Shown here in pieces: positions 5,900 through 48,014 of a DNA stretch of 64,000 bases. The notes beneath the pieces were generated by a model. The model ran no database searches. It saw only the letters and a list, made by a program, of their open reading frames with translations, and had not been told where the DNA came from. This DNA comes from Cyanidioschyzon merolae (lineage: Eukaryota): the NCBI GenBank assembly GCA_000091205.1, contig AP006495.2; one strand, 5' to 3'. A program made the position numbers and the translations under genes. Position 1 is the stretch's first letter, and each line of letters starts with the position of its first letter.

Positions 5900-6850
5900 A
5901 TCGCAAAATTAGTATATAAATGGATCTTCATCGAAATGATCCTGGGTGCGAACGCCGTCCGGGGCTGCGTCTCAACCAGAGACGTGCTGGCGTCCTCGTT
6001 CCATGGAGCGCGAACTAGACCCGAGTCAGATTGAAATGGGGTACTGAACAGGAAGTTCTTTTCCCCGCTTCACCAAATTTTTCGAATTTTACAGATGCTA
6101 AGCTTCGACATTCGACGTCCAGCGATATGGGATTTCAGATTCATGCGTAAGTTTCGGACTCGTGGGCGCGTTTTCGGGGTGCCTTCTTCGACGATTTGAC
6201 GCTGGAATTCTTTATGTCACCGGAATCAGGACGATTCGCGACGCCCTCGAGGAAGCGTTCGTAAAATGAACTATACGACTGCTCAATTCGTGCCTAAAGC
6301 CTCCAAGCTTCCCATTTCTTTACGACTAGCATGCTCCAATTAAGCATTCTTCAGGTTTTCGATCTTTCTGTTCCGAGGCAACTCGTGTGGGCAGGCATTT
6401 CGCGCCGCTGGAGTCATGGCGTGGAAGCGTAGTCGATGTCGACCCTTGACGAGTTGTTCACATGCTTATGCCGAAAGTTTGTCGAAATCTTCACGTCAAA
6501 TAATAGGTTTTGACTGAATGACAAAATCCTCCTCGAATCGTGGCCATGGACGACTCGCGATTCGGCAGCAACCTGATGCATCTCAGGCGTATATGCACGA
6601 TGAGGCTCTAGTCTCGCACGTTTGCGTGCAAAAGGGTCTTGGACCTGGATATGATCCATTGCGGCGATCGATGTTGGTGGGATGCGCGTCACCGCTTCCC
6701 ACGAGGGAATCGTAAACGGATCGAAAATTCTCGACTTGTTCTCCAACCTGGTTTTTCCCGCACACGTTTCATCATGGATAAAATCGCGCTCCACAAATCC
6801 GATACTGAATGGAGCAGCGTGCGCTTGCGCGTGCTGCCTTCAGTGTACTC
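5900..6850 (+). repeat. dispersed composite repeat family, copy A (5'-truncated; abuts tRNA-Ala upstream side)
   Basis: 60-65% nucleotide identity to 20700-21560 and 37085-38520. Shared blocks include ggaatca..gattcgcgacgccctc, ccaagcttcccatttc, ctgtttcc and gtcaccgcttcccacgaggg...aaaattctcgacttgttctccaacc. Weakly conserved peptides appear on both strands. Confidence 0.7.
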
Positions 6851-7798
6851 GCAGAGGCAATCGTCCAGACGATGCCCGTAATCATAGTGGACGGCACCTG
6901 GCGTGGAAGCGGAGAGAGCAATCACAGGGAGCGCTCAGTGTCCGTCAAGGACATGTATCGGGCGATGAAGCATGCGATGACGCACAAGAAGGCGACACCA
7001 GGACGAGATGATGCGTTGAATGTACATGGACATCTAACGTTAGAGAAGGGTCACCGCTGCAGAGGGCGTCCCGAGACTGCAAAAAAAGAATGAGAAAATG
7101 GCAAGCGAAGCGTTGATCGCGACTTTCGCCTGTGCATGAACTGCATGAACGGCAGCGGGAAGCAGCAACAATGAGGCTTGAGCGCTGTCATTAGCATCCT
7201 TCGACTGCTGACAGCAGCGCTGGAGAGACAGGCGGAACCGGCGTATTGCAAACCGGAGATAAGAGATAGAAAAGTTAGCTATTGCTGACAAAGCCCGTAA
7301 ACGCTGTCTTTGATGACCATGGAAAGAGACCCGATCTTGAGCGTGCCTCCACGAGTTCGGCGAGTCATCCCGCACCACTCTATCCTGGCACGGATATCGT
7401 CTGGATCCGAAGCTCGACAGGGTCGAGGCTTCCGCTTGGTCATATATTTAGAGGCAGTTGCTGAAGTCGCAAAATATATCCGTGCGCGTACTCCCGGCGA
7501 GGCTCGAACGCGCAGCGTGTTCACCACGCACTCGCGACATCGAGCTTACTGAGCACCAAGTCTGCTTATAAGACTCGCGCTCTAACCAGCTGGGGTAGTC
7601 GACGGCGGCGTTGCCAGCCGATAGCTACAGGAGTGCGTCGCAAACGGACAAGCGTCGCAGAACAGCAGCCGACGCCAGTACGGAAAAAAGTCCCATAAAT
7701 TGATATATAAAGAGAAGAGTGCGTCATACGGCAGGCTGCCATGACGGTGCGCGTATCGGGCGTGGTGCCCGCAGTGCCTGCGGTTCGCAGCAGCAACC

Positions 7799-11142: not shown

Positions 11143-11792
11143 AGAGAGACACGTTCGCCTCTGCGTCTTTTCGAGGCGACCACTCTACCGTATCACCACT
11201 GTAACAAGCTGCTGCGCCCCGGGTGCTTGGTCCGTGCGTCCCCAGACGAAACCGTATTCGCTTCGAGCAAATCACGGGCGTTTCGCGTCGTCGATCAAAA
11301 ACACCACCAGTCATCACGTAAGTGTCGCTGATGCGACGACGCTCGAGCGCTGCGGAGATTGCGCCGGCGCCGGCGCCTCGCCCGCTTTTAGGGATAGCAT
11401 CAACATGCTCGAGCCGGCGTCCTCTGGCGAAGCGGCAACGCCGCTTTCTTTCCGAGTTGCGACTTCAGCGGCGCTAGAGGCGCTACTGCAGCGGACGTTC
11501 ACGACGTGCACTCGGCGCACAGTCGAACGAGAAACATAAACGGTACCCCCGAGGGAAACTATCGGTCGTGGAACTCTGAGGAAGAGCGTACAAGGATGGA
11601 AACTTCACTGCGCGCTGAGAACAAGCGTGCAATCGGGGATCGTTGGTCTGTGTAACTGCTATGTCAAGCAGAAGAAATCGTCGACACGGAGCAGCGTTCA
11701 GCAGCACACGCGAGCGGATGCATGAAGCGTGGCTCTTTGCCATGCTGGCGATGATGGCAGATGTATCAGCAAATCGCAGTGCACGCACATCC

Positions 11793-12215: not shown

Positions 12216-12295
12216 TGCACGCAGGCTCCATCCGATGCGCACACAGAATGGTATCCGTAGATGTTTCTACGACGTGCCTGTAGCTGGACGTAAGT

Positions 12296-14838: not shown

Positions 14839-16651
14839 GTCACCGCGGTCGGTGTTGAGGTTGCACCGCTGTCTCGCTCTGGCGATTTACAGCGGAAAGA
14901 AGCGACCTTGCCACGGATACACTGGGCCGGGCCGCTGCGAGCCGGGCATCTGTCTCTAGCGTAACTACGGGCATTGTCGCCTAGGCGCTACAGGTGAGCA
15001 ATGACCGGCGAAAACAACGATACGACATGCCTGTGTAGTTTTCGCAACCCGAATAACATCATTCGCGAAATGCTCGGGGGAATGTACCTGTTCAAAGAGA
15101 CGAGCGCAACCGTTTCACCTCAATGTGCATGCTCCCTCCGAATCGTTTCGCTGTGCAGGCACCCCATCCTCGCACAGGGACCTGACGCTATCGCATGCAT
15201 AGCCAGAGCATCGCAAGAGCGAACTTGTATGTATGCGGGAAAATCTGGCTTGTGGCCGATGTCCTCTGAACTGATGGTGCGGCATGATGAACCCTTGCCC
15301 GGATGCCGATAACAATTGCGCAATCAGGAATCCATCTGTTCGAGTCATGGATGCTACACCCTCACGCAAGGATTGCACGGATGGCGATACCGCGTGGCAA
15401 TACCGCATGGATAGTGGAATTAGAAGGTGCGTACGTGGCACGATCGCTGCTTTTCCAACCTGTGCAATTCGAAAGGAGCAATCCGTGATCATCGTCACCA
15501 AACAGCATGCAAGAAGAAGTATGGGTTACGGAACTTGGAAATAGAACCTGGGGCATGCTGCATGCTTCGCTGCGCGCCGAAATCAAGCGCCCAGTCAGGT
15601 ACACTGGCCTTTGGGTCAACGTTTCACCAAATAGGAAAAAGTGCAACAAAGCACCCGTGCGTTCCTGCAAGGGATCGCGCAGCACCCGCACTGCAGCGCA
15701 GCGATCCCCCCCGCCGGCGTCATCACCGTCGCTGCGGCATGCGCGCCGCCTCGACGCGGACGCGACGGTGATGCACATGACACATCGAGAGTGGAGCGCT
15801 GCGAAAGTTGCAACACATATCACAACCTCGGGAGCGCTCTTGAACACTGTTACCGCTGCCTTTGAAGTATGTTTGTCACGTCTTTCTTCGGATGCACTAG
15901 CAGTTTACTGGTCGACGGCGGGAAAAGTGCTTGTGCCCAATGCCCGTCGAGCCTGCAAACGCTTCGAATGTCGAAGCACCCGATCCCGAAGGCAACGAAA
16001 AAGCACGTGAAACGGCGGCCGCGAAAGTCCAGCCCAAGTGACAGAAACCGGACGCCTCCAAAGTACGCACTATATGACGTAGTGCCGCCTGAAGAGTATA
16101 CGATAGTTGCGGGTGGAGGGAGCATCCCACCAGAGTTCTTAGCGAAAATCGGTTCACGCAGCAAACGGCGACAAGAGTCTCGAAGCGAGAGGGACAGAAG
16201 CGCTGACGACGCTGATGACGAGACAATGGCGACCGCAACTGAACTGCTTCGTGCGGATGTTGACTAGTTGAAACGCCACGACGTCGAGTGTAGTCGGACG
16301 GTTTCTGCGTATCGAAAGACTTGTCGAGGTCGTAACCAGCTCGGTGTTACACGAAACAAGGCGGTATACATGCAGACTGACCTGTTTACAAGGAAAGCGA
16401 CACTGCAATGGTGAACGTGATGATTCCCTACAAGATGTTGCGTTCAGTCATGGTGCCTTACGGTGTGCGCTGTTCCCGCGCCTGTAGTGCCATGGGGGTA
16501 AACATAGCTTTTGCGCAGAAAGATTCGCGTCATTATGCCAGGAACACCAGCAGTGCTTTCGTTTTGCGAGTAAAACCACGCCGATGAGCCCGTGTCTATG
16601 TAAAACTAGGATACGCACGGTCTACAACGTGTATCACGACGCATAGCGCCG

Positions 16652-20699: not shown

Positions 20700-21560
20700 A
20701 CTCGCTCCAAAATACTTTTCAGAGGTGTTACACCAGTGACAGACTAGAGCTGAACATTGGACTGCTCGATCTGTTCCTGTCTTTGTATGTTTCCGAATTT
20801 TCTATTGACCTACGGCCATGAGATTCGAGGCGCAGCAATAAGAGCTCACGGATCCGTAGGATGATTTTGGATTTTGGGACGTGCTTTCGGAGCGGCTCCG
20901 ATGACTCTGCTGCTGGAATTAGAAGCTTCAACGGAATCAAAATGATTCGCCACGCCCTCAAAGAAGAGTTCTAAAAATACTCGATACCATCATTCTTTTC
21001 AAATGTAAAAGCTTCCAAGCTTCTCCTTTCCTTACGTGTGGTATGCTCAAATCACGCATACTTCAAGCTGGCGATCTTTCTGTTTCATGCAAACACGTTG
21101 GCGCAGCAGTTGCGCAAATGTATCGACGATAAATGAATCGATACATCATCCCTTGACGAATTCTCCACGAGGTCACGCCAAAAATCCTCCGAACTTGCCA
21201 CGCCATATCTATCAGAAGATATACTTCCGCAGGCCTCCGTCTCATCTGTTTGCATGGAAAAGGGCACTGAACACAGACTTCAGTCATCGCGGCGATCGGT
21301 TTCAGCGGGGACTGCGTCACCGCTTCGTACGAAGGTCGCGGGGTCGGATCGCAAACTCTCGACAGCTTCTCCAGCCTTGATCTAGCCTCTGGTATTTCTC
21401 TCAATATGAAGAACACCACGTTCCAGGAAGCCTCTATTCGACAGAGCAACTTGCTGTTCCATATGCAGCAGACAGGTTACTCGCCGAGCGGGATTCCCCA
21501 CATGAGGTACTTGATCGCAGGGTACGGCACCGGGAACGGAAACGGAGGATGGCATCGAGT
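20700..21560 (+). repeat. dispersed composite repeat family, copy B
   Basis: Aligns with 5900-6850 and 37600-38520. Shared blocks include ctggaatt..gaatca..gattcgccacgccctc, aagcttccaagcttc, gcgatctttctgtttc, ctgtttgcatggaaaag, gtcaccgcttcgtacgaagg and ggcaccgggaacgg. Confidence 0.7.
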
Positions 21561-22143
21561 TGCACCATCTGTACCCATAAAGTGCCTGTACCGCGCGATG
21601 GAGCGAGCCTTTGCGTGCCGAAGAGCGGCGCTCGGAGGAAGTGTTTTGGCAGACGTAGAGGAACCCCTGACCACATTCATGAATCACCGATGAGAACGTC
21701 GCACTCAATGGTGTGTACAGTCAAGATGAACATGGCAAGCGAAGTGTAGATCACAACCGACCTCTTTGAAAAAAAATCCGTTGACAACGGGATGAAGCCG
21801 CGAAATCGACTCTGTAACGATGATATCAACATCTCTCAGCTGCTGTTATAGGAGCTGTATGTCAAGTAGAAACAGGTGTATTGAGGGCCGGAGATCAGAG
21901 AGAGGCAGAGAAAGCAGTCGCAGAAAAATCCGCCAAAGTCTGGTGTTGATATCAGTGCAAAAAACCCGTTCTTGAGTTTATACGCACGAGCTAAGCACGA
22001 GGACCAGTTTCCCTGTATGCGGACATGGATCTGTAAAAGCGCGCGCCTATACGCACACCTGTTCGAAAACATAGGATTTGTAAACGACTAGCAGTCGATG
22101 ACACAAGCAAGCCTTGAAGCTTCTGCTACAGTCGCAATAAACC

Positions 22144-26110: not shown

Positions 26111-26819
26111 GCTATCCCCCAGAGACGCTCGGGATCAAAAGCCTCGCCACCAGTGCACGCACTCAGCGTAACGTACTCGCTGCCACCATGGATCGCACAG
26201 GTAACCCTAGGCTAGCAAGCGCTCACTGGCACATCTGCGACGATCGATGGACGCGCGCTCGGCAGCCTCGCTGCGCGCAATCGCCAGAGCGGCGATCGAT
26301 GGGGCACGCATTTCGCGTCGCAGCACGATGTCTGTGTGCGCGTTTTCCGAGGCGCGTCTGGCGGGTGCAATGGCGCACGCTCGCCGCCGCCCTGCCTGGC
26401 ACTCGATCTGGTGATCGCGCTCGATACGCCGCACTGACTAGGGGACGGCGTGCATGCACGCATGCCGAGACAGTCAGGCGCATCCGCGGCATGCATCCGC
26501 GCGGATCCAGGAGCGAGCGCGTGCCGCTGGCGATCGCGGTGCGTGTGGTCGGTTGACTGCGGAATGGACCCGCCAGCGTCGCGGCATCCTACTCTTTTCG
26601 ATGACAGAACGTTCAGATAGACCATGGATCCCAGAATTCGGAATGAGTGTTAAGATTCATGTAATTGTCCGCCATGATGCACCGTACTTCCAAGTTTCAT
26701 TACACATACTTTCTCTCGGATATGCTGGTCGCTTCGTATGTTCTATCGTGCGCCGAGTGCGTGCCGTCAGCGCCCGCCGTGGCACTTATACCACTGAAGC
26801 AGGTGCTGCACGGGGCCAG

Positions 26820-27170
26820 AGCGGCTCTGGCATACCAATGAGGGCGTCGGCTCGAGGCGTGGTTCATTCGACACGGAATCGGAGTACATAATCATTCTGG
26901 AAGCCTGCGACAGCGCGAACCGATCTACTAAGAGTCCACTGCAACCGGAGCGACGCCCAGACGCAGTAAAGCTGCGTCTAGTCCCAGAATGAACTGCGTT
27001 GCGGACGAGCTGCGCGGGTCTCGCCACAGTACCTGCCGCTGGAGGAAGCATGAAGCACGAGTCTTTCAGACTCGTCCGGCTCGCGGGACCTTCCGCCTAA
27101 AAGGTAAACTTTCGAAGATATGGAAACTTTTTCCCTTATTTTAACATTCATCGTACGTTATGTAGGGAAC
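26820..27170 (+). repeat. dispersed repeat, 5' module of composite family (copy without clear 3' module)
   Basis: ~65% identity to 37085-37440. Shared blocks include cagagcgg...ggc(a/g)tcgg(c/t)tcgagg..cggttca..cgg, gacgcccagacgca, ctagtc.cag.atg.actgcgtt.cgg.cgagctg and cgtcc.gg.cg.gggaccttccgc.taaaaggtaaactttc. Confidence 0.65.

Positions 27171-27518: not shown

Positions 27519-27553
<35 letters not shown>
27505..27553. repeat. (GCAG)~12 tetranucleotide microsatellite
   Basis: gcaggcaggtaggcaggcaggcaggcaggcaggcaggcaggcaggtg. Confidence 0.9.
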
Positions 27554-30099
27554 TGAGCGTTGGATCGCTGCACGTGGCGCAGCAACACGTTCAGGCATTC
27601 TCGGAAGCGAGGTTTCAAAATTCTTTTCCTTCCAGCAGGCCGTGTTACATACACTGCGTCGAGCTTCAGTTTTGTTATCGCACGAATCTTTTATCGAAAG
27701 AGTCCGGAAGAATATGGACGGATGTGAGCCCCGTATCCGGAACACCCGTGAACTGTAGATTGACGTGCAGCTTCAAGTATCGGACAGCTAGAAGGGCGTT
27801 CGGCGAGCGAGAAGCCTTGCGAGCGCGCATGGCGCCGTTCATCTCATTTTTTGGAAGAGTCTGCAGGTTGATGTGTGTCACAAGGGAGGCCCTTACCATG
27901 GTATCAGCCTGATCTTTCCCCTCCGGCAGCTTTTCTTTCCCTGTAACCCATCGTCCTCTATTCAGGAGCATCTTTCTCTTCTTTGCAAGGTGCGCTCTTT
28001 CCTTCCTCATTTACTTGGCGCTGTGGCTTGGATACGTTTTCCAGACTCCATATCTGTTTTCTTCCGGGGAATTCAGACGCACAGGATGGAGAATACGACT
28101 GAAATTCGCCGATTCTGTTTATGCGTCAAAGATTTGTCAAATACATGTTCATCACCGTGTCCGTGGTGAGCGCACCAAGTAACTGGAGCGCACCTGTCTG
28201 CAACCGCCCGCGCACGAGCAAAGAAGCAAGAAACCTGTTCGGCACTGGAGAAGTGAAAGAAAGATGTGGCGAAAAACGATGCCACGGATGCAAACGACTC
28301 GTCCATTGATCGTTGAGCGTCGAACTAGGGTTTTACAACAGATAAGAGGCATTGGACTGGATTGAACCAGGTAGAACAGGCTGGCTCGAATAGCAGCTGA
28401 GCGCCAATCGCAGCTGGTTACTCGTTGCCCGCTTTTGACTGATGGAAACCCACGTCATCTAAGAGCGGAATAGCAGAGTGTGGAAAGCACGTACCACGAA
28501 GCATGCGTCGACGACGGATGAGGTATTCAAAGATGCCTCACAGTTGGCGATTTGGAAGCGGTCACATGATTGAATCCCCGTTGGCGTTCATGTTGTCATG
28601 ATGCTCGCTTTTCTCTCGTTTACGAACAGCGGTTTGCCGCTCTTTGAGCATTCACATGCAGTTCTACCATTTCTTCCGATTAGAGTCTGATCGTGTTAGA
28701 GGAACACCCGCCCATAGTTTAAAACGCTCTCGTGCTCATGGGAAATCGGTCTCATGTTGTTCAACGAGCGACGGTCTCCCACAGAGCCGAGGTTTTTTTC
28801 TACGTCTATTTCGAGTCTGCATGTAAGCGTTCATGTGAAAGGTACAGAAACTTTGTGTTTAATCGCTTTTTGGTGACATTTTTAGGGAATGTAAGAAGCG
28901 GAATGGACCGAGGAACAAACAGTGGCATAGATCGAGTTTGATTGCTTCAGTTTCCCGTGTACGACGTAAAGTGCAACGACTGTGGCATAGGCGGTTCATC
29001 CATCCGCCGACCATAGAATAACTGACTTTGACGAAAGAGACAGTATTTTCACAAGTTAGCCGCGACAGGGTAGAGTACATCAAATACCCACCTGGAGTCT
29101 ACAGGATATATCCATGTATTGAACAAGTGCGAGAAAAACGAACAAGACAAAAACGGCTTGCAGGTAGAGATGTTCTCAAATTCACTGTTTTAAATAGAAG
29201 AACTTGCGCTCCACCATATCAGAATAAAATGAAGCGGGTCTTCTGATACGGACGTATAGACTAGAGATTGGGTCGTTGCCCGATTTCATCGAAACCAGTC
29301 TTTGTGGACTTGTTTCGCAACTGTCTCATATTGCTCTCTTATTCCAAGCTTTGAATAGGGCTGGCTCCTTTGTTCCTCCAGCTCGATTCGTACTTAGAAT
29401 CAGGAGCTTCTTCTCGACCATCTTCTCAGCGAGTACGCTGTCAGCTGCATGCGCGAGCGCACATTGTACCATTTGATAGCGGACTTGTGCATCATGATGT
29501 TTTCCGTGATGAAACAAGTACGAGAATGAGTTTCCAGGTTGGATATTAATTGAAGATATTTCGATCCATTTACACTTGCTTCGGGCAAATCGTTGGTACA
29601 CGTTCCGCTGCAAGCGATTGCTGCGGTAACTCTAGACCGAGTGCAAGACCCTCGTCAATGCAAACAGGAGAGTCGGGAGCCTCTCCGAGCGGTATCCCGA
29701 AATGAGGTATCATGCTGGTACAAAATACCATTTCGTCAATGGTCAAATAGATATGAATCTTTGTCTTTCGAACGAAATCGGTGGTTTGCAGAGAGTCCTA
29801 CAGAGCACTTCCGGCATGATCTTGTGAGCAACTCGTCAAAGATTGACGTCGAGCGTTTACCTCTTCAGTCCTATGGCGCGAATCGCTGCGACTACGAGTT
29901 GTCTTGGAAATGGTGGACAGAAAATTTGGCGCATGCGCGATATGAGCATACAACAGGTATAAAACGGAGAAGAATCGCGGCTTTTTCATAAGAGTAAGAT
30001 ACCAATATCGATTGGGTTACGAACTTTTGCATACGTACGTCGCGAATCATCCTGACCCCAGTGACGGAACGAATGCCACGTGCAGTGTCGATAGAGCAG

Positions 30100-30325
30100 C
30101 CCCCCCCCCCAAAACGACAGGGAAACATCCGAAAACGACATATGAATCCGTACGCCCTCCTAGCCGAAAATGGGTTATCGAGGCTGTACATCCGAAAAAA
30201 AATGTCCGGAAAAAAAAAAAAAAACCTGGAACGGAGCGATCAGCCCAAAAATCCATAGGAATCTGAAACGACTGGACAATAGTTTCGCCAACTGCCTCGC
30301 CCCGAGTCCGCGACATACGCAGAAG

Positions 30326-33538: not shown

Positions 33539-33584
33539 CAAAGTTTTTTTCGGATACGACAACATGCCCGACTGCGACAACAAC

Positions 33585-33956
33585 ATCTGGCCTTTGCATG
33601 CTAGTCGCCAGCTCACCGTGAATGCAAACCCGACCCCGATGCTCCATACATATGCAATCTGTTCCGAAAAGAAGACCATCTGGCCTTTGCGTGCTAGTCG
33701 CCAGCTCACCGTGAATGCAAACCCGACCCCAATGCTCCGTACATATGCAATCTGTTCCGAAAAGAAGACCATCTGGCCTTTGCGTGCTAGTCGCCAGCTC
33801 ACCGTGAATGCAAACCCGACCCCAATGCTCCTTACATATGCAATCTGTTCCGAAAAGAAGACCATCTGGCCTTTGCGTGCTAGTCGCCAGCTCACCGTGA
33901 ATGCAAACCCGACCCCAATGCTCCTTACATATGCAATCTGTTCCGAAAAGAGTACC
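33585..33956. repeat. 93-bp tandem repeat x4
   Basis: Unit atctggcctttgcgtgctagtcgccagctcaccgtgaatgcaaacccgaccccaatgctcc.tacatatgcaatctgttccgaaaagaagacc starts at 33585, 33678, 33771 and 33864. It begins ~45 bp after the stop codon at 33538. Confidence 0.9.
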
Positions 33957-36655: not shown

Positions 36656-37084
36656 TAAAACGCTAAAGAAACATGCAAATGAAGAATGAGCGTTAAAAGG
36701 AGGCTCTTTGAGATCAACGGCTTCATCAGGGCGATGCGGATGTGAACGGGACAGATTGCGCGCCGCAAACGCGTGGCGGGCGTACGATGCAGGAGGAGGC
36801 GATGCGCGCTGTGGTAGCGCCTTCGACGAACGATGAGCGCTCGGGTAATTGGATGGGTACCCCGTTATTTGAGAGGACGTTTGCGTGGATCAGGGATCCG
36901 AGGTCCCCGGAGGGATAGTGGCACTCGGGTAGGCTTCGATCACGCTGTACCCGAGATTCAAGTTCCGTGACCTATACTTTTCTCGAACGTACTGGTTATT
37001 TCGCACGTTCTATCGTTTGCCAAGTGCCTGCCTTGCTGCACCCGCTCTAGCACCTGTTCCGCTGGTGTGGTTGCGTCACGGAGA

Positions 37085-38520
37085 CAGAGCGGACATCGCA
37101 TAGCGTTGGGGGCATCGGTTCGAGGTACGGTTCACTGGTCCCAGATTCGGGACGCACTGGCTTTATGGGAGCGTGGGAACTGCCCAGGCAGACGCACGGC
37201 CTGCGAGAGCGCAAGGCGACCTGCTGGGAGACCACTGCAAGCAAAACGACGCCCAGACGCATCGCAACCGCTCCTAGTCTCAGGATGGACTGCGTTCCGG
37301 GCGAGCTGCTGAGGTCTCGCCTCTGCACCCGGCAGTACAACGGTGCACAGAGTGCAAGCCCGGTAGACTCGTCCTGGTCGTGGGGCCTTCCGCTTAGAAG
37401 GCAAACTTTCACAACAAACGAGAGAACTTCCACCTTTCAACGCGTAACGTGAATCTGGAAAGAAACTGTTGCCGAGTTGGTCGTTCGTTGTTCGTTTCTG
37501 GGCTTTATCGTTGCTGCGGTTTGACGCGCAACCGGCATGGGATAGCTGCGATGGTGCAGTTGCAGGTGCGGTGCACTCGCCCGACACCCTAGGCAAGTGA
37601 ACGCGTAGCATTGTGAGGATCTCTCCGTCCAAGCCTTGAGATTTGTTTTCGAATATTTGTTAGATGTATATTACTGACATTATGAGTGCGGTGAGAAGAG
37701 CTTATGGATTCATGCGTAGTTTAAGGACTCTGGATCGTGGTTTCGGAGTGGATGTCTCAGCTCGGTGCCGTTGGAATGCTTCCTAGAACCGGAATCAACA
37801 TGATTCATGACGGAAACGAAAAAGGGCCCCTACATAATCGATATGAGTATCCATTTCATATAGACAAGGCTTGGCGCTTCTCCTTTTGCTCGTGTGTAGC
37901 ATGCTCAAGTTACGCTGGCTTCGCACTTCCCATTTTTCTATGTCAGAGCGACTCGTGGGCGTAGCGATTCGCGCTCTTGGGCTAATATGGAACAAAACCA
38001 GAAGGCTTCGGTGGACGGCTCGTTCCAAAGCTCATGCCGATCGTCTACTCAGCTCGCGACGTCAAATAATCGATTTCCCTCGGAAAAACATATCCTTATC
38101 TCTTGGTGGCCATTGTTAGAATCGAATTCGTTACCAGCGTGATAATTTTCGCGGGATGTGCGCCTAGAGGTTCCGGCCTCTTCTGTTTGTATGGAAAAGC
38201 GTCTCGGGTTTGGTCGACAGTTATCTGAGCGCTCGCGTCCGGGAGAGAGCGCTTCACCACTTTGCACGAATGGGGCAAAGACGACTCGAAAGTTCTCGAC
38301 TTTTCCCGGACTGTAGTTTTCTTCAGGTACTTTTTTTGATTATGGACAACATCGCGTTCAAGAAAATTTCCCACCAAATAGGGCAACCTGCGCTTGCAGC
38401 GGATGGCGTACTCTTCAGGCGAATCGCTCAGAAGAAGCCCATCATCATAGGAACGGCACCGGGCACGGAATCGGAGCGCAGCATCGAGGTGAGGCTTCTA
38501 CACCTGTCAAGCGTGAGCAC
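37085..38520 (+). repeat. dispersed composite repeat family, copy C (most complete: 5' module 37085-37440, 3' module ~37640-38520)
   Basis: The 5' module matches 26820-27170. The 3' module matches 5900-6850 and 20700-21560, with blocks ctgtttgtatggaaaag, cttcaccactttgcacgaatgg, aaagttctcgacttttcccgg and ggcaccgggcacggaatcggag. Confidence 0.7.
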
Positions 38521-39446
38521 CGAGCAATGAAGCGAGCGTTCACGCGTCAAAGGCCGACTCTCGGAGAACGAGGAGGTGCAATGGACACGTGAGAACACCC
38601 GATCGAAGTTACGTGTCGCCGCCACGAATGGTGTACCGAGGCTTTATACCAGGTGGATGATGATTGCAAGGGAAACGTTGATCACGGCTTCTGTCCGTGC
38701 ATGAAATGCGTGACCAATAGCACGAGGTAGCGAACTCGGGACTTGAACGCTTCGACTGCTGCCAACGGTACCCTAGAGAACGTATACACCAGTGTACTGA
38801 ATGTCTTGATAAGGGAAAGAAAGAGGAAACAGTCACAAATAAAGCCCGCAAACCCCGGAGTTCATGACAGTGCAAAGAGTCCCAAACATTGTCCTGTGTG
38901 TGTGAGTGTGCCCGAGCTCGAGGGCTCTTTTCGTTTTATTCTCGCTTGGATGCAATTCGCATTGCTGTCACAACGGTGGCGCATGCGTGACGCCTACGTG
39001 TCCATAGCAATGCGTGCTGGTGCATGGACCCGTGCCACGCACGCACTCGATCTGTGCGTGCACATGCGGCGCACTGAAGCGCAAGACTTGCTGAGCGATC
39101 ATTCGCGCTGCCCGATGCACTGCACTGCACTGCACTTCACTACATGATGCATTCGCGTTTGGCGCGGGACCAGCATCGACTGGTGCTTCACATGACGCAC
39201 GTGTCCATTCAACAGCGTAGACGCGTTGCTGCTGTTACGACTGCTTCTGCAGAGCCGTCGGGGTTATGGATCGCTCGCTGGCGGCGTCGCCGGAAGCAGC
39301 GCGCTGTGATCGCCGGGCGATACACGGCGCCAGCCGCGTGCGTACGATGGACGCGCGTTCCCGCTCATGCGGTTCCTGCGCAGGCCATGCAGCTGTACGT
39401 ATAGCACCTCTTCTCCCAAAGTACCTGGAGTTCGGCGTCAACCTTC

Positions 39447-40991
39447 ATGGATGCAACTGCTCATATAGGCAGTGCGTTTGATCTCCGGGGGAATATCGGC
39501 GAAGAAAGCCCTCTCTCAGTGGAGAACGAGGCACCACCAAACGCTTTTCAGGGCACGCGGGGCTCGGACACGGAAAATGATAGCCGACTCTCGCTCGGTG
39601 CGCTTTCGTCCTATGCGCCGTTGCTTGTGGAAGTTGCTTGCCAGCTAAGCAAGTTACGAGATCGACTAAACGACTTGGAGCATCAATCGAGAAAATCGAG
39701 CTGTGTCCAAGACCAGCTGGGTGCACTTGCCAATCAGGTAGCCGTATTAGAGGAGCGCTTGCGCCAGCACGTGCTGGCTCGCGAGCACTGGTGCGCTGCT
39801 GAATCCGTTCCCGAACGGAAATCCCTCCTCGAAAGCGAGGATGCATCGGACGCTGTGGACAAACTCGCCGAGGAGTTCAGAGACCAATTTTTAGACATCA
39901 GAGCGTTCGAGCTCCGCCTCACTCAAGCGGTCAACGCGCGCTTTCTGGAACTCTATCGCTGGACGGAGTCCCAATTGACCCGTCTCGAGGAAAGACTTGC
40001 CAGCATCGACGTGGACGGCTCTCTGAAGCGCGAGATGGCCACGCATGCAGAGCAAATAGGTCAAAAACTGGAACACCTTGAATCGGGCATGCGTTCGTGC
40101 ATTTCACGCGAGGAGTGGTCACGTGAGCGTGACGCCCTTGAAAAGCACCTTCGCCATGATCTCGGCGAGTGCGCGAATCGCAACGCGTCGTCGAAACCGT
40201 CGGCACCCACAGAGCAGGGCACAACCTCAACCTCAGTTGCGCTGGATGCGATGCGTAGTGTCATGCACCTCCAGAGCACCGTCGAGGGGAATGCTCGCGC
40301 TGTCGAGGACGCCCTCACAGCAGTACGCACGAGCTGCCAAGCGCTCAACCAACGTCTGCAAAGAATAGAACACCAGTTAACAACGGATGAATTCGTCGGC
40401 GGCGCTGGCATGCGACAGGTCGCGCCACCACCAGACTGGAACCAGATCCAGCAAACCGTCCGAAAACTCGAAAGCCAGCTGCAGAAACTATCTTCCCGGT
40501 TACCGGATCCCGAAGAAATACACACCGCCGTAACACAGACCAAGGAACTAACTGGCCGGAACGATCAACTCGAACGAAGAGTAGAGCGCTTGCACGTCCA
40601 AATGGAAAGCGAGCGGAACCAGCGCAGCGAGCTGGAGCACAAGGTAACCCGCCTGGAGGACTTTACCAGCACTTTACAATCACTACCCGCCGAGTTGACG
40701 AGTCTCACCAAGTCCATGACCCAAGGCGATGAAGTTCTACAAGAGTGGGTGCGCGGCCAGCTCCAACGACTCGATGCGCGACTCCATGAACACGAATCTT
40801 CACTACACGAGCTTCGTGCGGAGACGGCGCACCTCTACGAACAGTATGCGGAAGTAGCAGCTCTGATCCTGTTGATGACTCCAGCCGACAACCGGGCCAC
40901 AGTGGAGCGACGAATTCGACAACTATTGCCGGGCCTTGGAGCGCTGAAATTGCCCGCATCACGCGCTGGCACCTCCGAGGACACCCGCTGA
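39447..40991 (+). CDS. coiled-coil protein of unknown function
   Basis: 514-aa ORF dominated by heptad-like segments rich in Leu, Glu, Arg and Gln. No enzymatic motifs. Confidence 0.5.
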   Translation: MDATAHIGSAFDLRGNIGEESPLSVENEAPPNAFQGTRGSDTENDSRLSLGALSSYAPLLVEVACQLSKLRDRLNDLEHQSRKSSCVQDQLGALANQVAVLEERLRQHVLAREHWCAAESVPERKSLLESEDASDAVDKLAEEFRDQFLDIRAFELRLTQAVNARFLELYRWTESQLTRLEERLASIDVDGSLKREMATHAEQIGQKLEHLESGMRSCISREEWSRERDALEKHLRHDLGECANRNASSKPSAPTEQGTTSTSVALDAMRSVMHLQSTVEGNARAVEDALTAVRTSCQALNQRLQRIEHQLTTDEFVGGAGMRQVAPPPDWNQIQQTVRKLESQLQKLSSRLPDPEEIHTAVTQTKELTGRNDQLERRVERLHVQMESERNQRSELEHKVTRLEDFTSTLQSLPAELTSLTKSMTQGDEVLQEWVRGQLQRLDARLHEHESSLHELRAETAHLYEQYAEVAALILLMTPADNRATVERRIRQLLPGLGALKLPASRAGTSEDTR

Positions 40992-44600: not shown

Positions 44601-45348
44601 ACTCCTCAAGGCTGCCTAAGTTGTGTATCTGGTTCCACCAAATTCCCATTTCAGTGTCGGTATCCTCGCCGCCGGGCGACTGCAGCACATCCGACGGTTG
44701 CATCGTGGACTCGGGCACAGCGAACAGAGGCCCCTGATCTCCCGACTGGGAGGCAATGAGCGGCTCTATTCGCTTAGGTGCAGGCAACGGCTCTGGGGGT
44801 GGTGGCATAGCCATCCACGCTGACATGAACTCGTGGAAGGTGTCGAGCGGACGGTCCCCAAAGCTCGCGGGCCTGCTCTCTGTTGCACAAACCTCCCACG
44901 GCTCGACCAGGAGCTCCGCCTTGAAGGACTCAACAGCCAGGCGGTGGTGCTTCGACCATCGCCGCCGCACTTCCTCATCTCTGCGTAACACAACAGGGTC
45001 GTAGACCCGATTCCAGTACACAGCCTCGGCACCGCAGCGTTTCACGACCTCCAGAAGCGTCGTCTCGACGCCGCCGCCGCCGCCGCTTTCCGACTTCGCA
45101 CGCCTCAGAATTAACCCGGTTTCGCAACCTAGCTCCCGAAGTCGTCGGTCAAGTGCAACAATGGAACGACTCAACCACCAACGTGCCGGTCGGCCGAGAC
45201 ACCACATACCGTCCTCTTCGGGTGCCCAGATGAACACCGGCACCACCGGGCCTCCGCGCTGCACGGCAGCAAGCAACGCTGGCATGTCCTCAACACGGAG
45301 GTCGTGGCCGCGGTACCACACAACCGAAGGTCGTCTCGACGACGACAT
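41671..45348 (-). CDS. cryptochrome/photolyase family protein, plant-CRY / class III CPD-photolyase-like, with ~650-aa low-complexity C-terminal extension
   Basis: N-terminal VVWYRGHDLRVEDMPALLAA...PVFIWAPEEDG...GRPARWWL is like plant CRY1 (IVWFRRDLRVEDNPALAAA...VWAPEEEG...GRVSRWWL). FAD-binding region GRTGYPLVDAAMRELHHTGWLHSNLRFLVASFFTKYLLLPW...DPEGEYVRTWCPEL...IHAVW. The C-terminal half is rich in Gly, Ser, Ala and Pro. Confidence 0.85.
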   Translation of the reverse strand: MSSSRRPSVVWYRGHDLRVEDMPALLAAVQRGGPVVPVFIWAPEEDGMWCLGRPARWWLSRSIVALDRRLRELGCETGLILRRAKSESGGGGGVETTLLEVVKRCGAEAVYWNRVYDPVVLRRDEEVRRRWSKHHRLAVESFKAELLVEPWEVCATESRPASFGDRPLDTFHEFMSAWMAMPPPPEPLPAPKRIEPLIASQSGDQGPLFAVPESTMQPSDVLQSPGGEDTDTEMGIWWNQIHNLGSLEEYWRPGVDCVAERLQDFLTSVFPTYGDARRRQRLRNGTSRLSPYLRFGELSPRRLYHAVRASVLQSEPSDAIIRAARTLLRNLCLREYAYHMLFYRPSILDRPLVPEFDHFPCTKEDVGRLLEVWLSGRTGYPLVDAAMRELHHTGWLHSNLRFLVASFFTKYLLLPWQIGARCLFKLFIDGDLASNAICWQWVTGCNYDVFPLNCLVNPVVMGMRVDPEGEYVRTWCPELQQIPSSYIHAVWKCPPTILHQARVELGVTYPRPVVENRVARRRARDALRYLRQVVLNKRGYGVRVPNTLSLKGTQELMSDWPIDEVYNVLDSKQEDLFGLSDLGHELPSGRQPERPMRDSDASIDDQEIAGDSIGGDHVGLLPRVWSMSQDDPLHNVFDLGGSASGANGAQLAGPSPGLGGSNGYAQGPGGGNGGSSLMYGVSAGTFGNQQMALVSSGMGMGSSGVGGGGGGGGGGSDRSIPEVVVGAPSSVDEDSYTEKLHRVDSFHALLSAGATTPLARGSIMEPTGRVPGTNPDFMRAPPTEHLSSLSGIVAPNASHPSSAVHVSTSGSRSLVTAGGAAAALSPGQMMRTPNAAVDPGTTSASPLLLHHTGGAGHGRGSSRGTATLPGSQSQPMGTRSMLNANLPGSVFAFESGEPGAMPRPAPGHSLGPETSVSAPASWALINERPSLSAAEDASVHRRPGAMPASTSTRYDNGEAARYLEDRAGRKRALADEGVCTNPDLTMPERFPAVAAARVTQRLEHDTAGSVSSAAKTKRRASGAAAAPQAPAQQRTRDGSAPNEAPAPGSSALHHDATRAPAGSRWLEQGASGESLDVRSSSASSDRTAPITLEGLGDVEPPQTRSERLELLERIHRSDNAYARFAGFLLQHYDITENVRRNPKSTDFVRLRNLKDHFNRYSAPPRAGQGAAHREPLRIYRIKQFFSKILNLEVTGEWDRHAHGGVRGPYVYGLVLRADALQRAAP

Positions 45349-48014
45349 GCAATACTAGAGGCAAAATTTAGCGCCTTGCGCCGCCTCCACGGCGACGCGT
45401 GCAACAAGTTACCCCCTGTGGTGGTCCAGTGAAAGCACGAATAACCTGGAGGCGTTTTCGTGTTTGGGTACAATCATCCGCGCGGCGACCGTGTGCGCCT
45501 CATGATCGACGCCGTCGTCGGCGCCATCGCCGGTGCCGCGCCCCCAGGCGATGATGCGCGTGCGCGCCTGGCCCTGCAGTGGCGCGGGAGGCGTTCTGTC
45601 GAGGCCGCTGCCCCGATGCCCTCCGACTGAGCGGCAGCGCGAGCGCAGGCGCAGCGCGAATCGTACGCGACGTCGATGCTGGATATGCGTGGATGAGCGC
45701 TCCAGTTGTTCGGATGTGTACATCGTAAAGTTCGGGTCTTTTCTAGACATCTTCAACAACGGCAGTGTTTCAGGGATTTTACGACCACCGATTTCTTTCA
45801 TTCTCTTTTATTTCTGGATTTACAGGAATTGCACGTTCCTGTTTATCCTGCTTCTTTGCGCATCGTTGCAGGATGGTGATGGCAGCACGCACGACCCGAT
45901 TGGGCGGCTTCCGGGTGTTGTTCACGCATTCCATGGAACGGACGGTGGATGCGCTGTACTCGCCGCCTGCCGTGTTCATCTTCTTTGTGTGCAGCCTCGG
46001 TACGCATTTTACTTCTGTGATACTTTGCTGCGGTCAGGTGTAACCGTATACCTATTGCAAAATCGGATTCGAGGACCGCCCTGCGGTGCGTAAACGACTG
46101 TTTCATTGCTCGGCGCATGCTTCTGGTGGATACAGTAGCTGTGCTCGATACCCATCACCGCTTCCGTGCCAGGTGCCGTACCCGCAGGATCACGGGCTGC
46201 TTCTGGGCGATTACCTCCGCGAGCAGTTTATCAGCTGCACACGCAAGCGCGTGCTATTTCATTGGATAGGGGATTTTTGGAAAGTGATTTGTCGTAGGGT
46301 GAAACGAGTGCCAGAAGGGGAGTCCGGGCTGAAGAACAAGTCGAGCGACTTATCCGTTTAGGCTCCATTCGAGCCAACTGATGACGTATTCGTCATGGGA
46401 ACAGGTCGCCGCGTTGACTCATGTCGGAGTCCAAGACCCTCTTCTGTCTAAACGGAAGAGACGGGAGTGCATGGAGTTTATGCTTTGGGAGGCGTTGAAC
46501 TGGCGCAGAATGCCGCTTGCCTTCCAATGACGTTGTGAGGAGGATTTGCCTTTCGAACGGAATAGATTGTCTAACATAAAAAATGCAGTGAAGCTTCAAC
46601 ATGGGCTTGTGAACAAGTTGTCGGGAGACGACGTCGAGCCCTATTCCTCGTCAAATCAGCGGCGCGAATTCCTGCGCCCACGAGTTGCCGTGAAACACGA
46701 CAATCGAACACTTGGACAGTGCACGATAGCTGCATAAAACAGGTATAGAATCGAGAAGCGTAGAGACTTGTATGTATGAGTTGGGACATGATTTCGGCTA
46801 TTTTTCATGCATGTATTCGATTGCGTCGTAAGAGTCACTCCAGAAACTCGAACGAGAATCCCAAAACTGCATATGCATCCATAAGCCCTTGTTGTTGAAC
46901 CTTACGCATTCAGGCTGCACATCAAAAAAAATTTCGAGCGCAATCGAACCGCATGAACAGAGCGAGCAGTTCAGTTTTCAGTTTTCATCTGACTCGGATG
47001 TAGGAGGCTCGTTCACCGCAACCCCCGAAACTGTGGCCGAGTGCCTTCTAGGCGCTGTTTTTCGGTGATCATGGTCAAGTGCAGAAGCCGTTCGTCAGCA
47101 ACTGCGGCGAGCCGAAGCGCGCGTTGTCTCTAGATCGCCCGGGCGATATTCCCATGGCCGAAAAACTCGACACGAAAAGGCAGGCGGGTGCAGCGCCTGC
47201 CCCAGCAGGACAGCGTCACGCAAAACAACAACCGCAGGAGTTTGGTACTCGAGAATCGAACATATGGCGATGTATTCCAGTCTGGAGCATTTGGAAAGGA
47301 CACCCTTCGGTGACGCTTCGCTGCAGGCAATCGAGGTGCCGCTGCCTTGAACGACACCTACTCAGGCCTTTTCATATGAATATGAGGATCTGATGCCAGT
47401 GTGGTGCGACTCAGGCGATCCACGGTCTCCGAGGCGACCGCGTGACATCGCAAACAGCAGCAGCAGCAGCAGCAGACAGCTTGTATTGCACGCTCACCCT
47501 TCTGGTACAAAGTGGAAGTATTGGAACCACAGTCCGCTTTTGTGGATTACCCAAAGACAATTGGCTCAATGCCTATAAGCTTACGCTCTACAGCACAGCA
47601 GCAGTAGCAGCAGTAACATGTCAGAGACTGGTCGTTGCATGGGTATAGCAGTACTCGGGCGCAGCGCGCGCATGTCGAGGTCATGAACAGGAGTTGGCGC
47701 ACGAAACACCACGATGCATTCTTATACAGTTTTGTCACAAAAGATCTATTAACGCGGTGCCGCCGTACGTTGCGATCGCTACGCAGGCGCCGTCGCGGGC
47801 AACACGTCGCCGCGCTCGCTGTCCACAGCAGCAGCGCACCGACGGCGTAGCGCGTCGACGACGAGTCCGATGCATCGGATGCGGTGTACGCGCCGCCTCT
47901 ACCCCCGATGCTACCTTCTAGCAACGGGTAGAGGCCGCGAAACGCTTGTAGCGACCTGTCGTCCGCTACAGCCTGAAGCGTAACACCTGAGCTCTGAGAA
48001 ACACGAGGAGGCTT

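What the first reader, a model, noticed from the sequence alone, without database searches (positions are those of the whole stretch)
37085..38520. Composite ~1.4-kb dispersed repeat family present in at least 3-4 diverged same-orientation copies, all intergenic
Nucleotide alignment by eye finds a 5' module (~350 bp; copies at 26820-27170 and 37085-37440, with a probable truncated remnant at ~5925-6160). It also finds a 3' module (~800 bp; copies at ~6160-6850, 20840-21560 and 37640-38520). Identity is about 60-65%, and all copies are on the same strand. The 3' module retains weakly conserved peptides on both strands. Examples on the plus strand are R..HRF.R..R.R.E.SRL and IMD.IA; on the minus strand, KSR.F.P...PS.EAVT...P..IAAM. 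No copy has an intact long ORF. This could be a decayed transposable element (SINE/LINE fragment or MITE-like), a multi-copy non-coding RNA locus, or a decaying gene family. A dispersed repeat is notable in an otherwise compact, gene-dense genome.
Basis: seen in the sequence. Interest (0 to 1): 0.65.

Follow-up and report, generated by a model that had tools for sequence, protein, structure and literature searches.

The report
Decayed Tc1-type/Fanzor transposon relics, red alga

Summary
The window is Cyanidioschyzon merolae 10D nuclear DNA, on an 866,983-bp chromosome.

**The "3' module" (R1)**
- It is a 1.07-1.39 kb element present in five copies, not three, and two of them are on the minus strand.
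- A consensus of 16 copies (5 from the window, 11 from metagenome contigs with R1 copies) restores an ORF that starts at ATG. It aligns with intact Tc1/IS630-type DDE_3 transposases (44% identity, E=3e-62).
- That ORF is fused to the C-terminal part of a Fanzor1/TnpB-like nuclease: the RuvC-II region, a zinc ribbon and the RuvC-III motif NRDLNAAINIL. It scores above threshold for Pfam PF07282.
- The consensus ends carry 28-nt terminal inverted repeats (24/28 complementary) with TA at both ends.
- Intact ~3.6-kb relatives (transposase plus a ~710-770-aa Fanzor1-like gene) occur in metagenome contigs.
- R1 is therefore an internally deleted, non-autonomous derivative, now decaying neutrally.

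**The "5' module" (R2)**
- It matches the published 5' 635 bp of the Fanzor1 element CMe-1A, which is also the separate element TE-N2_CMe, at 73-78% identity.
- It lies next to R1 only once.

**Rejected readings**
- No evidence supports a structured RNA, a cellular gene family, or a SINE/LINE.

This is ordinary biology and of low interest. The side note is that transposon relics make up about 19% of this window.

The parts
37582..38955 (+). R1 copy C (the finding's '3' module'): decayed non-autonomous Tc1-type/Fanzor1 deletion derivative, 1374 bp
   Evidence: nhmmer family profile. Termini placed against the multi-copy alignment and the terminal repeats of intact relatives. Transposase HMM hit at 37664-38098, 36.6 bits. 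Fanzor C-terminal HMM hit at 38455-38880, 96 bits.
6015..7399 (+). R1 copy A, 1385 bp
   Evidence: Transposase remnants at 6095-6247 and 6295-6762. Fanzor C-terminal remnant at 6878-7297, 122 bits.
20728..22035 (+). R1 copy B, 1308 bp, with an ~80-bp internal deletion relative to the other copies
   Evidence: Transposase remnants at 20911-21120 and 21205-21432. Fanzor C-terminal remnants at 21514-21950, spread over three frames.
29209..30278 (-). R1 copy D, 1070 bp. It has both termini but has lost most of the Fanzor C-terminal segment.
   Evidence: Transposase remnants at 29475-29702 (27.4 bits) and 29857-29994. No Fanzor C-terminal hit. A 3' terminus resembling the terminal repeat lies at 29209-29231.
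45668..47004 (-). R1 copy E, 1337 bp.
   Evidence: Transposase remnant at 46625-46813. Fanzor C-terminal remnants at 45773-46136.
36870..37511 (+). R2 copy b (the finding's '5' module'): a copy of the 5' 635-bp module of CMe-1A / TE-N2_CMe
   Evidence: 73.2% identical to published CMe-1A consensus positions 4-636; nhmmer E=8e-95. It ends 70 bp before the 5' terminal repeat of R1 copy C.
26599..27156 (+). R2 copy a: CMe-1A 5' module / TE-N2_CMe
   Evidence: 77.6% identical to CMe-1A consensus positions 1-581; nhmmer E=2e-108. 63% identical to copy b.
11406..11666 (-). R2 copy c: truncated CMe-1A 5' module.
   Evidence: CMe-1A consensus positions 4-257, 65% identity, nhmmer E=1.5e-20. Also found by tile nhmmer and by the R2 profile.
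15505..15624 (-). R2 fragment (CMe-1A consensus positions 9-124). A second small fragment lies at 15270-15335(-).
   Evidence: R2 profile E=5e-9 and 6e-6. CMe-1A consensus E=1.4e-5 and 5e-6.

Best explanation
The finding covers two unrelated, dead families of class II (cut-and-paste) mobile DNA in the C. merolae nuclear genome.

**R1, the "3' module".** R1 descends from a roughly 3.6-kb Tc1/IS630/mariner-type transposon. That parent encoded a ~320-aa DDE_3 transposase followed, on the same strand, by a ~710-770-aa Fanzor1 gene, a TnpB-like RuvC nuclease. An internal deletion joined the transposase just after its second catalytic Asp (motif MDNIAFHKS) to the last ~170 residues of Fanzor1. Both 28-nt terminal inverted repeats were kept. 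The resulting ~1.4-kb derivative could not encode either protein. It must have been moved in trans by a full-length relative's transposase, which binds the inverted repeats and inserts at TA. It spread into intergenic DNA, lost its source of transposase, and has since decayed without constraint to about 73% identity with its consensus.

**R2, the "5' module".** R2 is the already published 5' module of the Fanzor1 element CMe-1A, which also exists as the separate 635-bp element TE-N2_CMe. It sits beside R1 at one locus only, by neighbouring insertion.

**Shown here:**
- homology to a transposase and to Fanzor;
- the inverted repeats;
- the two-gene structure of intact relatives;
- neutral divergence;
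- R2's identity with CMe-1A.

**Inferred:**
- the deletion event;
- mobilisation in trans;
- TA target duplication.
For: **Organism**
- Exact protein matches to C. merolae 10D.

**R1 is a real family**
- Five window copies.
- At least 11 further distinct copies in metagenome contigs; where such contigs overlap the window they are ~99% identical to it.

**Transposase ancestry**
- The 5-copy consensus hits Pfam DDE_3 at E=8.9e-7, 29.3 bits, above the 28.6 cut-off, preceded by HTH_Tnp_Tc3_2.
- The 16-copy consensus has an ORF starting at ATG. After one frameshift correction in an A-run, it aligns with intact transposase P0047 over query residues 1-236 (P0047 1-233): 44% identity, E=3e-62. It also hits DDE_3 at E=7e-10.
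- The consensus protein finds the intact DDE_3 protein P0046 at E=3e-29 in 5.8 billion sequences. P0046's relatives are 300-340-aa proteins, some labelled "Tc1-like transposase".
- An HMM built from those intact proteins hits all five window copies, on the R1 strand and in collinear order.

**Fanzor ancestry**
- Consensus nt ~800-1310 encodes ...QRALACAAD...PVIVGYGTGRGNGGGH...VDILEHLTTVKCHRCEG...CMKC...RNRDLNAAINIL.
- It hits PF07282 (Cas12f1-like TNB) at E=5e-6, 27.0 bits, above the 26.3 cut-off.
- An HMM of homologous fragments hits copies A, B, C and E at 59-122 bits.

**Two-gene parent**
- In four contigs the transposase gene is followed ~170 bp downstream, on the same strand, by a 706-769-aa ORF.
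- That ORF's C-terminus matches the R1 tail at 104-162 bits.
- It has a RuvC-I motif, GLDPGRVN.
- It aligns with the published C. merolae Fanzor1 CMe-1 over 293 columns, hhalign E=1.4e-4.
- In two of the four contigs (L076, L077) the two-gene unit is flanked by 27-30-nt inverted repeats; in L077, whose flanks were read, TA adjoins both arms.

**R1 termini**
- The R1 consensus ends are CTACACCCGTGTCAGATTAAAATGGAAC and its inverted partner: 24/28 complementary, with 0 of 1000 shuffles reaching that score.
- Similarity among copies stops exactly at these ends.

**Neutral decay**
- No preferred frame or strand and no codon periodicity.
- Individual copies give no Pfam hit.
- Divergence between strains is 1.00% in repeats, against 0.69% at third codon positions, 0.73% in other intergenic DNA and 0.25% at first and second codon positions. 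The repeats also carry 1-bp indels.

**R2**
- 73-78% identity to the published CMe-1A consensus, E=1e-95 to 1e-108.
Against: - The third catalytic residue of the transposase and the RuvC-I region of Fanzor are absent from R1. Both assignments therefore rest on partial domains.
- No inverted repeat can be detected within any single copy. It appears only at consensus level.
- TA duplication cannot be proved at this level of decay. The conserved C-TA...TA-G could be part of the repeat rather than the target.
- The Pfam TNB hit is only just above threshold. The hhalign link to CMe-1 has 53% probability, and no solved structure is hit by sequence.
- The organism carrying the intact relatives is unknown. 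No full-length parent was seen in C. merolae itself.
- Four of the five copies lie upstream of, and co-oriented with, the next gene. This is unexplained and may be chance.
Confidence: 0.88

Rival explanations
1. One composite ~1.4-2.1 kb element, with the 5' and 3' modules as a single mobile unit.
For: The two modules are 70 bp apart and co-oriented at 36870-38955. The 5' module is the 5' part of another Fanzor1 element (CMe-1A), so a shared leader is conceivable.
Against: - Four of the five R1 copies have no R2 beside them.
- R2 occurs without an R1 copy directly beside it at 26599-27156 and 11406-11666.
- Similarity among R1 copies starts abruptly at their own 5' inverted repeat (37582 in copy C), downstream of where R2 ends.
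- None of the extra R1 copies aligned across their flanks shows a shared upstream module.
Confidence: 0.03
2. A family of non-coding RNA genes, or cis-regulatory or promoter modules retained because they serve the downstream genes.
For: - Four of the five R1 copies end 60-490 bp upstream of a co-oriented gene start.
- Nozaki et al. report that the other C. merolae interspersed repeat is transcribed.
- The 3' end of a Fanzor element normally encodes its guide RNA (established knowledge), so an RNA remnant is plausible.
Against: - No Rfam family matches.
- Between-strain divergence in the repeats (1.00%) is not lower than at third codon positions (0.69%) or in other intergenic DNA (0.73%), and the repeats tolerate 1-7 bp indels.
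- Copies are only 49-64% alike, and the consensus restores protein ORFs.
- With five copies, the orientation bias is not significant.
Confidence: 0.05
3. Pseudogenes of a dispersed cellular gene family, made by segmental or retro-duplication rather than by transposition.
For: Weak peptide conservation was seen by eye, and the consensus has ORFs of 250-415 codons on both strands.
Against: - The restored ORFs are a DDE_3 transposase and a Fanzor/TnpB nuclease fragment.
- The unit has terminal inverted repeats and sharp boundaries.
- The flanks are unrelated between copies.
- There is no poly-A tail.
- All frames score alike among copies.
Confidence: 0.02

Closest known systems
Mariner/Tc1-type transposons carrying Fanzor1 (for example PUl-1 of Pythium ultimum: 3620 bp, 24-nt inverted repeats, TA duplication; Bao & Jurka 2013, PMC3627910)
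   Same: The order of a Tc1/IS630-type transposase followed by a Fanzor1 gene is the same. So are the ~3.6-kb size of the intact metagenome relatives, the short terminal inverted repeats and the TA at the ends.
   Different: R1 itself is a 1.07-1.39 kb deletion derivative that keeps only the N-terminal ~237 aa of the transposase and the C-terminal ~170 aa of Fanzor1. It is decayed and sits in a red alga. For C. merolae, that paper lists no family classified as Mariner/Tc1.
CMe-1A / TE-N2_CMe of C. merolae (Bao & Jurka 2013). Probably the "novel interspersed repetitive element" with a WSV486-like truncated ORF: 253 copies, average 3.2 kb (Nozaki et al. 2007, PMC1955436).
   Same: R2 (the 5' module) is this family: 73-78% identity to consensus positions 1-641. 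Its age is similar, since CMe-1A copies are ~80% identical to their consensus and R1 copies ~73%. Both R1 and CMe-1A carry Fanzor1-type sequence.
   Different: R1 shows no DNA similarity to the 3169-bp CMe-1A consensus. Its Fanzor remnant is only distantly related to CMe-1, and the link goes through intact relatives (hhalign E=1.4e-4). R1 has inverted repeats and a transposase remnant, whereas CMe-1A is described as lacking inverted repeats and as unclassified. Equating WSV486 with the WSSV Fanzor1 is my inference from the two papers and was not tested.
The eight "class II elements" of C. merolae, with transposases closest to those of bacterial transposons (Nozaki et al. 2007)
   Same: DDE_3/IS630-like transposase remnants would give exactly such weak BLASTX hits to bacterial transposases.
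   Different: Only eight such elements are reported for the whole genome. This 64-kb window alone holds seven DDE_3 relics: five R1 and two R3. Whether any of the eight are R1 or R3 copies could not be checked.
MITEs
   Same: Non-autonomous, with terminal inverted repeats, intergenic, multi-copy, and presumably mobilised in trans.
   Different: R1 is longer (1.3-1.4 kb) and keeps large recognisable pieces of both parental ORFs. The P-MITE survey reports no MITEs in C. merolae (abstract seen).

Membership tests
IS630/Tc1/mariner superfamily (class II DNA transposon) | DDE/D transposase catalytic domain (Pfam DDE_3) | tested here: met
   The consensus hits DDE_3 at E=8.9e-7 and 7e-10, both above the gathering score. 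It shares 44% identity with intact transposase P0047, E=3e-62. All five copies are hit collinearly by a family HMM. The motifs DE(T/M) (first Asp) and MDNIAFHKS (second Asp) are present.
IS630/Tc1/mariner superfamily (class II DNA transposon) | Complete catalytic triad with characteristic spacing (DD34E in the intact relatives) | tested here: not met
   Intact relatives have D, then 34 residues, then E in NPIE (counted by eye). In R1 the region after the second Asp is replaced by Fanzor-derived sequence, so R1 cannot encode an active enzyme. It is a non-autonomous derivative.
IS630/Tc1/mariner superfamily (class II DNA transposon) | N-terminal paired helix-turn-helix DNA-binding region | tested here: inconclusive
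   HTH_Tnp_Tc3_2 at E=4e-4 to 1e-3 and HTH_33 at E=4.5e-4, all below the gathering scores. However, the consensus aligns with intact transposases from residue 1.
IS630/Tc1/mariner superfamily (class II DNA transposon) | Terminal inverted repeats | tested here: met
   The consensus termini are 24/28 complementary, and 0 of 1000 shuffles reach that score. They resemble the 27-30-nt repeats of the intact relatives. No repeat is detectable within single decayed copies.
IS630/Tc1/mariner superfamily (class II DNA transposon) | TA target-site duplication | tested here: inconclusive
   TA is present at both consensus ends (CTA...TAG) and at both ends of the intact element in L077. No empty site was available, and decay prevents a per-copy test.
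Fanzor1 / TnpB-like RuvC nucleases | C-terminal RuvC-II Glu, zinc ribbon (CxxC...CxxC) and RuvC-III motif (RD.NAA.NI) | tested here: met
   The consensus reads VDILEHLTTVKCHRCEG...CMKC...RNRDLNAAINIL and hits PF07282 at 27.0 bits, above the 26.3 cut-off. Remnants are present in copies A, B, C and E.
Fanzor1 / TnpB-like RuvC nucleases | RuvC-I Asp and the N-terminal two thirds of the protein | tested here: not met
   Absent from R1, having been deleted. Present in the 706-769-aa ORFs of the intact relatives (GLDPGRVN).
Fanzor1 / TnpB-like RuvC nucleases | Homology to a published Fanzor1 | tested here: inconclusive
   hhalign of the intact relatives against CMe-1 gives 293 collinear columns, 30% identity, E=1.4e-4, probability 53%. 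phmmer is negative, and there is no sequence hit in the PDB.
Fanzor1 / TnpB-like RuvC nucleases | Guide (omega) RNA encoded at the 3' end | not tested
   No RNA data are available. Copies that decay independently after insertion are not expected to show covariation.
CMe-1A / TE-N2_CMe (Repbase families of C. merolae) | DNA similarity to the published consensus | tested here: met
   This row applies to R2 only. R2 matches at 26599-27156 (77.6%), 36870-37511 (73.2%) and 11406-11666 (65%), with E down to 2e-108. R1 has no hit at E<1e-3, so R1 is not a member.
SINE/LINE retroelements | Poly-A or simple-repeat tail, reverse transcriptase or pol III promoter, 5' truncation pattern | tested here: not met
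   The aligned 3' ends have no A-tail. No reverse-transcriptase domain was found. The copies are full length with both termini.
Structured non-coding RNA family | Match to a known RNA family, or conservation above neutral | tested here: not met
   Rfam finds only tRNA-Tyr. Between-strain divergence is at least as high as at neutral sites.

The most novel reading that the evidence does not exclude
R1 may record a second Fanzor1 lineage in Cyanidiophyceae that has not been described. Unlike the unclassified CMe-1A, it is carried by a bona fide Tc1/mariner-type transposon with inverted repeats, TA ends and a DDE_3 transposase.

Its deletion derivatives may number in the hundreds in C. merolae. 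The rough estimate is one copy per ~37 kb of unselected flanking DNA. If so, the published figure of 0.7% transposons, with only eight class II elements, would understate mobile-element relics by an order of magnitude.

Intact two-gene copies survive in metagenome contigs retrieved by homology searches from the R1 consensus. Their environment and host organism are unknown. They could supply RNA-guided nucleases from the hosts of those contigs.
Probability: 0.35. Interest if true: 0.45.

Novelty: new member of a known kind. Interest (0 to 1): 0.25.

Why it matters
For genome annotation, about 19% of this window is transposon relic: R1 6.5 kb, R2 1.6 kb, R3 3.3 kb and CMe-1A fragments 0.9 kb. 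This is in a genome widely cited as having 0.7% transposons. A library built from reconstructed consensus sequences would change the accepted repeat content of a model "minimal" eukaryote. It would also matter for designing homology arms and choosing neutral integration sites.

For mobile-element biology, the result gives a Tc1/mariner context for a Fanzor1 lineage in red algae. It also points to intact two-gene elements in metagenomes.

Otherwise the finding is ordinary decayed mobile DNA with no sign of present function.

Tried and rejected
- **Rfam scan of the whole window.** Only tRNA-Tyr was found.
- **Protein-coding selection among copies.** Six-frame BLASTP sums were equal on both strands (3156 vs 3056 bits). 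None of 60 mismatch-periodicity tests stood out. A real paralogous gene pair used as a positive control showed a clear dominant frame.
- **Pfam on individual copies.** Frame translations of the individual copies that were scanned gave no hits; only consensus sequences did.
- **Inverted repeats within single copies.** None scored above shuffled controls. They appeared only once intact relatives supplied a template and the multi-copy termini were aligned.
- **Pfam on the plus frames of R3.** Negative, because R3's transposase lies on the other strand.
- **PDB sequence searches.** Searches with the R1 consensus, the Fanzor tail and the 769-aa relative gave nothing meaningful.
- **Taxonomic origin of the contigs with intact elements.** Exact look-ups returned no names.
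- **Exact look-up of small ORFs inside the repeats.** None is in the protein collection.
- **Literature.** The dispersed-repeat paper of Rudenko & Korotkov (PMC11050394) gives no family-level information usable here.
Full report
**Where the window comes from.** The large ORFs encode a plastid sigma factor, citrate synthase, DCP1, an LrgB-type transporter, a cryptochrome/photolyase and similar proteins. Three of them are exact matches to proteins of Cyanidioschyzon merolae strain 10D on an 866,983-bp chromosome: BAM80951, BAM80953 and BAM80955. The accessions are near-consecutive, so no protein gene is annotated in the intergenic stretches that hold the repeats. The only RNA gene found is an intron-containing tRNA-Tyr at 5782-5870(-).

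- R1, the "3' module", has five copies of about 1.1-1.4 kb.
- R2, the "5' module", lies at about 26.6-27.15 kb and 36.87-37.5 kb, with a third, inverted, truncated copy at 11.4-11.7 kb.
- A third family, R3, lies at 27553-29191 and 60642-62294.

R1 and R2 are adjacent only at 36.87-38.96 kb. The proposed 5'-module remnant at 5925-6160 is not found by an R2 profile or by the published consensus.

**Not under selection as protein or RNA.**
- Six-frame BLASTP between copies scores the same on both strands and in all frames: 3156 versus 3056 bits. A genuine paralogous gene pair in the same window shows one dominant frame.
- Mismatches show no three-base periodicity.
- Five metagenome contigs are ~99% identical to the window, so they come from other strains of the same species. 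Against them, the repeats differ at 1.00% of sites. The figures are 0.69% at third codon positions, 0.73% in other intergenic DNA and 0.25% at first and second codon positions. The repeats also carry 1-7-bp indels.
- Rfam finds nothing.

The copies are therefore drifting freely. This test cannot tell whether the ancestor was coding. Consensus reconstruction answers that.

**What R1 was: the transposase half.** A majority consensus of the five copies already hits Pfam DDE_3 above its gathering score (E=8.9e-7), preceded by HTH_Tnp_Tc3_2. That is the domain order of IS630/Tc1/mariner transposases. The individual copies that were scanned give no Pfam hit. The consensus protein finds one protein among 5.8 billion: P0046, a DDE_3 protein, at E=3e-29. 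Its relatives are 300-340-aa proteins, some named "Tc1-like transposase DDE domain-containing". An HMM of these intact proteins, run against the six-frame translation of the window, hits all five R1 copies on the R1 strand in collinear order. It also shows that R3 is a second relic family of the same superfamily, on the opposite strand to the one I first assumed.

**More copies and a better consensus.** A 24-nt degenerate motif conserved in four of the window copies was scanned through the metagenome collection.
- Of 69 loci, 44 carry R1.
- These cluster into the five window loci plus at least 11 further distinct copies.
- A 16-copy consensus (1358 nt) has mean pairwise identity of 57%, and each copy is 63-77% identical to it.
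- The consensus has a 415-codon frame open from an ATG at nt 65.
- Correcting one frameshift in an A-run, the first 236 residues (MYSLDIRSAAIRAY...VSRQLV...GLTRKKTRRRP...VAIDETAF...GYAPRGSRL...IMDNIAFHKSS) align with intact transposase P0047 over its residues 1-233. Identity is 44% and E=3e-62; DDE_3 scores E=7e-10.

**What R1 was: the Fanzor half.** Immediately after the second-Asp motif the consensus changes character. It reads ...MEQRALACAADSVLAEG..KKPVIVGYGTGRGNGGGHRGEPSVPVK...VDILEHLTTVKCHRCEG...RNFRLCMKC...RNRDLNAAINIL. This is the RuvC-II / zinc-ribbon / RuvC-III end of a TnpB- or Fanzor-type nuclease. It hits Pfam PF07282 (Cas12f1-like TNB) above threshold. Homologous ORF fragments exist in metagenomes, and an HMM of them hits copies A, B, C and E at 59-122 bits. 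Copy D has lost this segment but keeps the 3' terminus.

**The intact parent type.** Four metagenome contigs carry close relatives of the transposase. In each, the gene is followed about 170 bp downstream, on the same strand, by a 706-769-aa ORF.
- Its C-terminus matches the R1 tail.
- It contains a RuvC-I motif, GLDPGRVN.
- It aligns collinearly over 293 columns with the published C. merolae Fanzor1 protein CMe-1 (hhalign E=1.4e-4, probability 53%).
- In two of the four contigs (L076, L077) the two-gene unit, about 3.6 kb, is flanked by imperfect 27-30-nt inverted repeats, and in L077 TA adjoins both arms.

With these repeats as a template, the R1 termini become visible. Similarity among copies begins at CTACACCCGTGTCAGATTAAAATGGAAC and ends at GTTCCATTTTATTCTGGCATGGATGTAG. 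The two ends are 24/28 complementary, and no shuffle out of 1000 reaches that score. The resulting limits are:

| Copy | Coordinates | Strand |
|---|---|---|
| A | 6015-7399 | + |
| B | 20728-22035 | + |
| C | 37582-38955 | + |
| D | 29209-30278 | - |
| E | 45668-47004 | - |

**What R2 is.** Nozaki et al. 2007 described 253 copies of a 3.2-kb interspersed element with a truncated ORF weakly similar to WSSV WSV486. Bao & Jurka 2013 described a Fanzor1 family in C. merolae, CMe-1A: 3169 bp, about 150 copies, about 80% identical to its consensus, no inverted repeats, unclassified. Its 5' 635 bp is also a separate element, TE-N2_CMe, with about 70 copies. They also list a Fanzor1 in the WSSV genome. 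I took the CMe-1A consensus from their supplement and compared it with the window.
- R2 copy a is 77.6% identical to positions 1-581.
- R2 copy b is 73.2% identical to positions 4-636.
- R2 copy c matches positions 4-257.
- R1 has no similarity to CMe-1A.

So the "5' module" is a known family and the "3' module" is a different one. That the WSV486-like repeat and CMe-1A are the same thing is my inference, from the matching size, the matching copy number and the WSSV Fanzor1.

**Mechanism.** Two steps are established knowledge for the superfamily. The transposase binds the terminal inverted repeats, excises the element and inserts it at TA. Internally deleted copies that keep both ends are mobilised in trans. 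Shown here are the homology, the termini, the deletion-fusion structure and the neutral decay. Inferred are the single deletion event that created the R1 progenitor, its spread in trans, and its extinction when the autonomous source was lost.

**Abundance.** The metagenome loci hold about 147 kb of non-redundant DNA outside the window and outside the copies that were selected by the motif. That DNA contains four further R1 copies, about one per 37 kb. This is a rough figure, biased by clustering. It suggests on the order of a hundred to a thousand copies genome-wide.

**Verdict.** The repeat is real, but it is ordinary decayed class II mobile DNA. One module is already published. The other is a non-autonomous Tc1-type/Fanzor1 derivative, and I could not check whether it is catalogued in Repbase. 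Interest is low. The modest points of value are the Tc1/mariner context for a Fanzor1 lineage in red algae and the indication that transposon relics in this "minimal" genome are under-reported.

Noticed in passing
window 27553-29191 (element on - strand) and 60642-62294 (+): R3 is a second decayed Tc1/IS630-type (DDE_3) family. The two copies are about 58% alike. Transposase HMM hits lie at 28241-29044 (48 bits) and 60826-61515 (60 bits). R3 shows no DNA similarity to R1.
   Followed up: partly
window 62516-62905(+), 63232-63494(-), 63562-63785(-): These are fragments of the published Fanzor1 element CMe-1A. They cover Fanzor aa 525-654, consensus positions 2824-3089 (aa 643-728) and consensus positions 786-1003. 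The last two look like one internally deleted copy. The first lies just downstream of R3 copy Y on the same strand.
   Followed up: partly
L076:3881-7640, L077:2073-5687, L078, L079 (metagenome contigs): These are apparently intact ~3.6-kb two-gene elements. Each has a 316-326-aa DDE_3 transposase plus a 706-769-aa Fanzor1-like ORF with RuvC-I, RuvC-II and RuvC-III motifs. Two of them (L076, L077) are flanked by 27-30-nt inverted repeats; TA at both ends was read in L077 only. The host organism is unknown and the contigs have 46-56% GC.
   Followed up: partly
R1 termini, e.g. window 6015-6017, 47002-47004; loci L046, L057, L060: Most copies show C-TA at the 5' end and TA-G at the 3' end. This could mean a CTAG target preference, or that the repeat simply extends one base further. 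No empty sites were available to decide.
   Followed up: no
window 5782-5870 (-): A tRNA-Tyr(GTA) gene with an intron lies 145 bp from the 5' end of R1 copy A.
   Followed up: no
window 4093-4440, 11792-12221, 19449-19774, 33579-33956, 50653-50872: These are tandem repeats with units of roughly 116, 48, 63, 93 and 110 bp. The 48-bp array upstream of or within the LrgB-like ORF differs in copy number from the metagenome strain. Tandem arrays differ between strains at 2.8% of sites, the highest of any class.
   Followed up: partly
window 49474-50342 and 50957-51827: A tandem pair of paralogous coding regions on the minus strand, about 65% identical in DNA and 56% in protein. They show a clear single-frame signal and served as the positive control for the coding test.
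   Followed up: partly
window 7399-7799, 22035-22144, 38955-39447, 45348-45668: Four of the five R1 copies end 110-490 bp upstream of the start of a co-oriented gene (an LSM-domain protein, a cyclin-like protein, a 514-aa protein, and the cryptochrome/photolyase). The sample is too small to distinguish insertion preference from chance.
   Followed up: no
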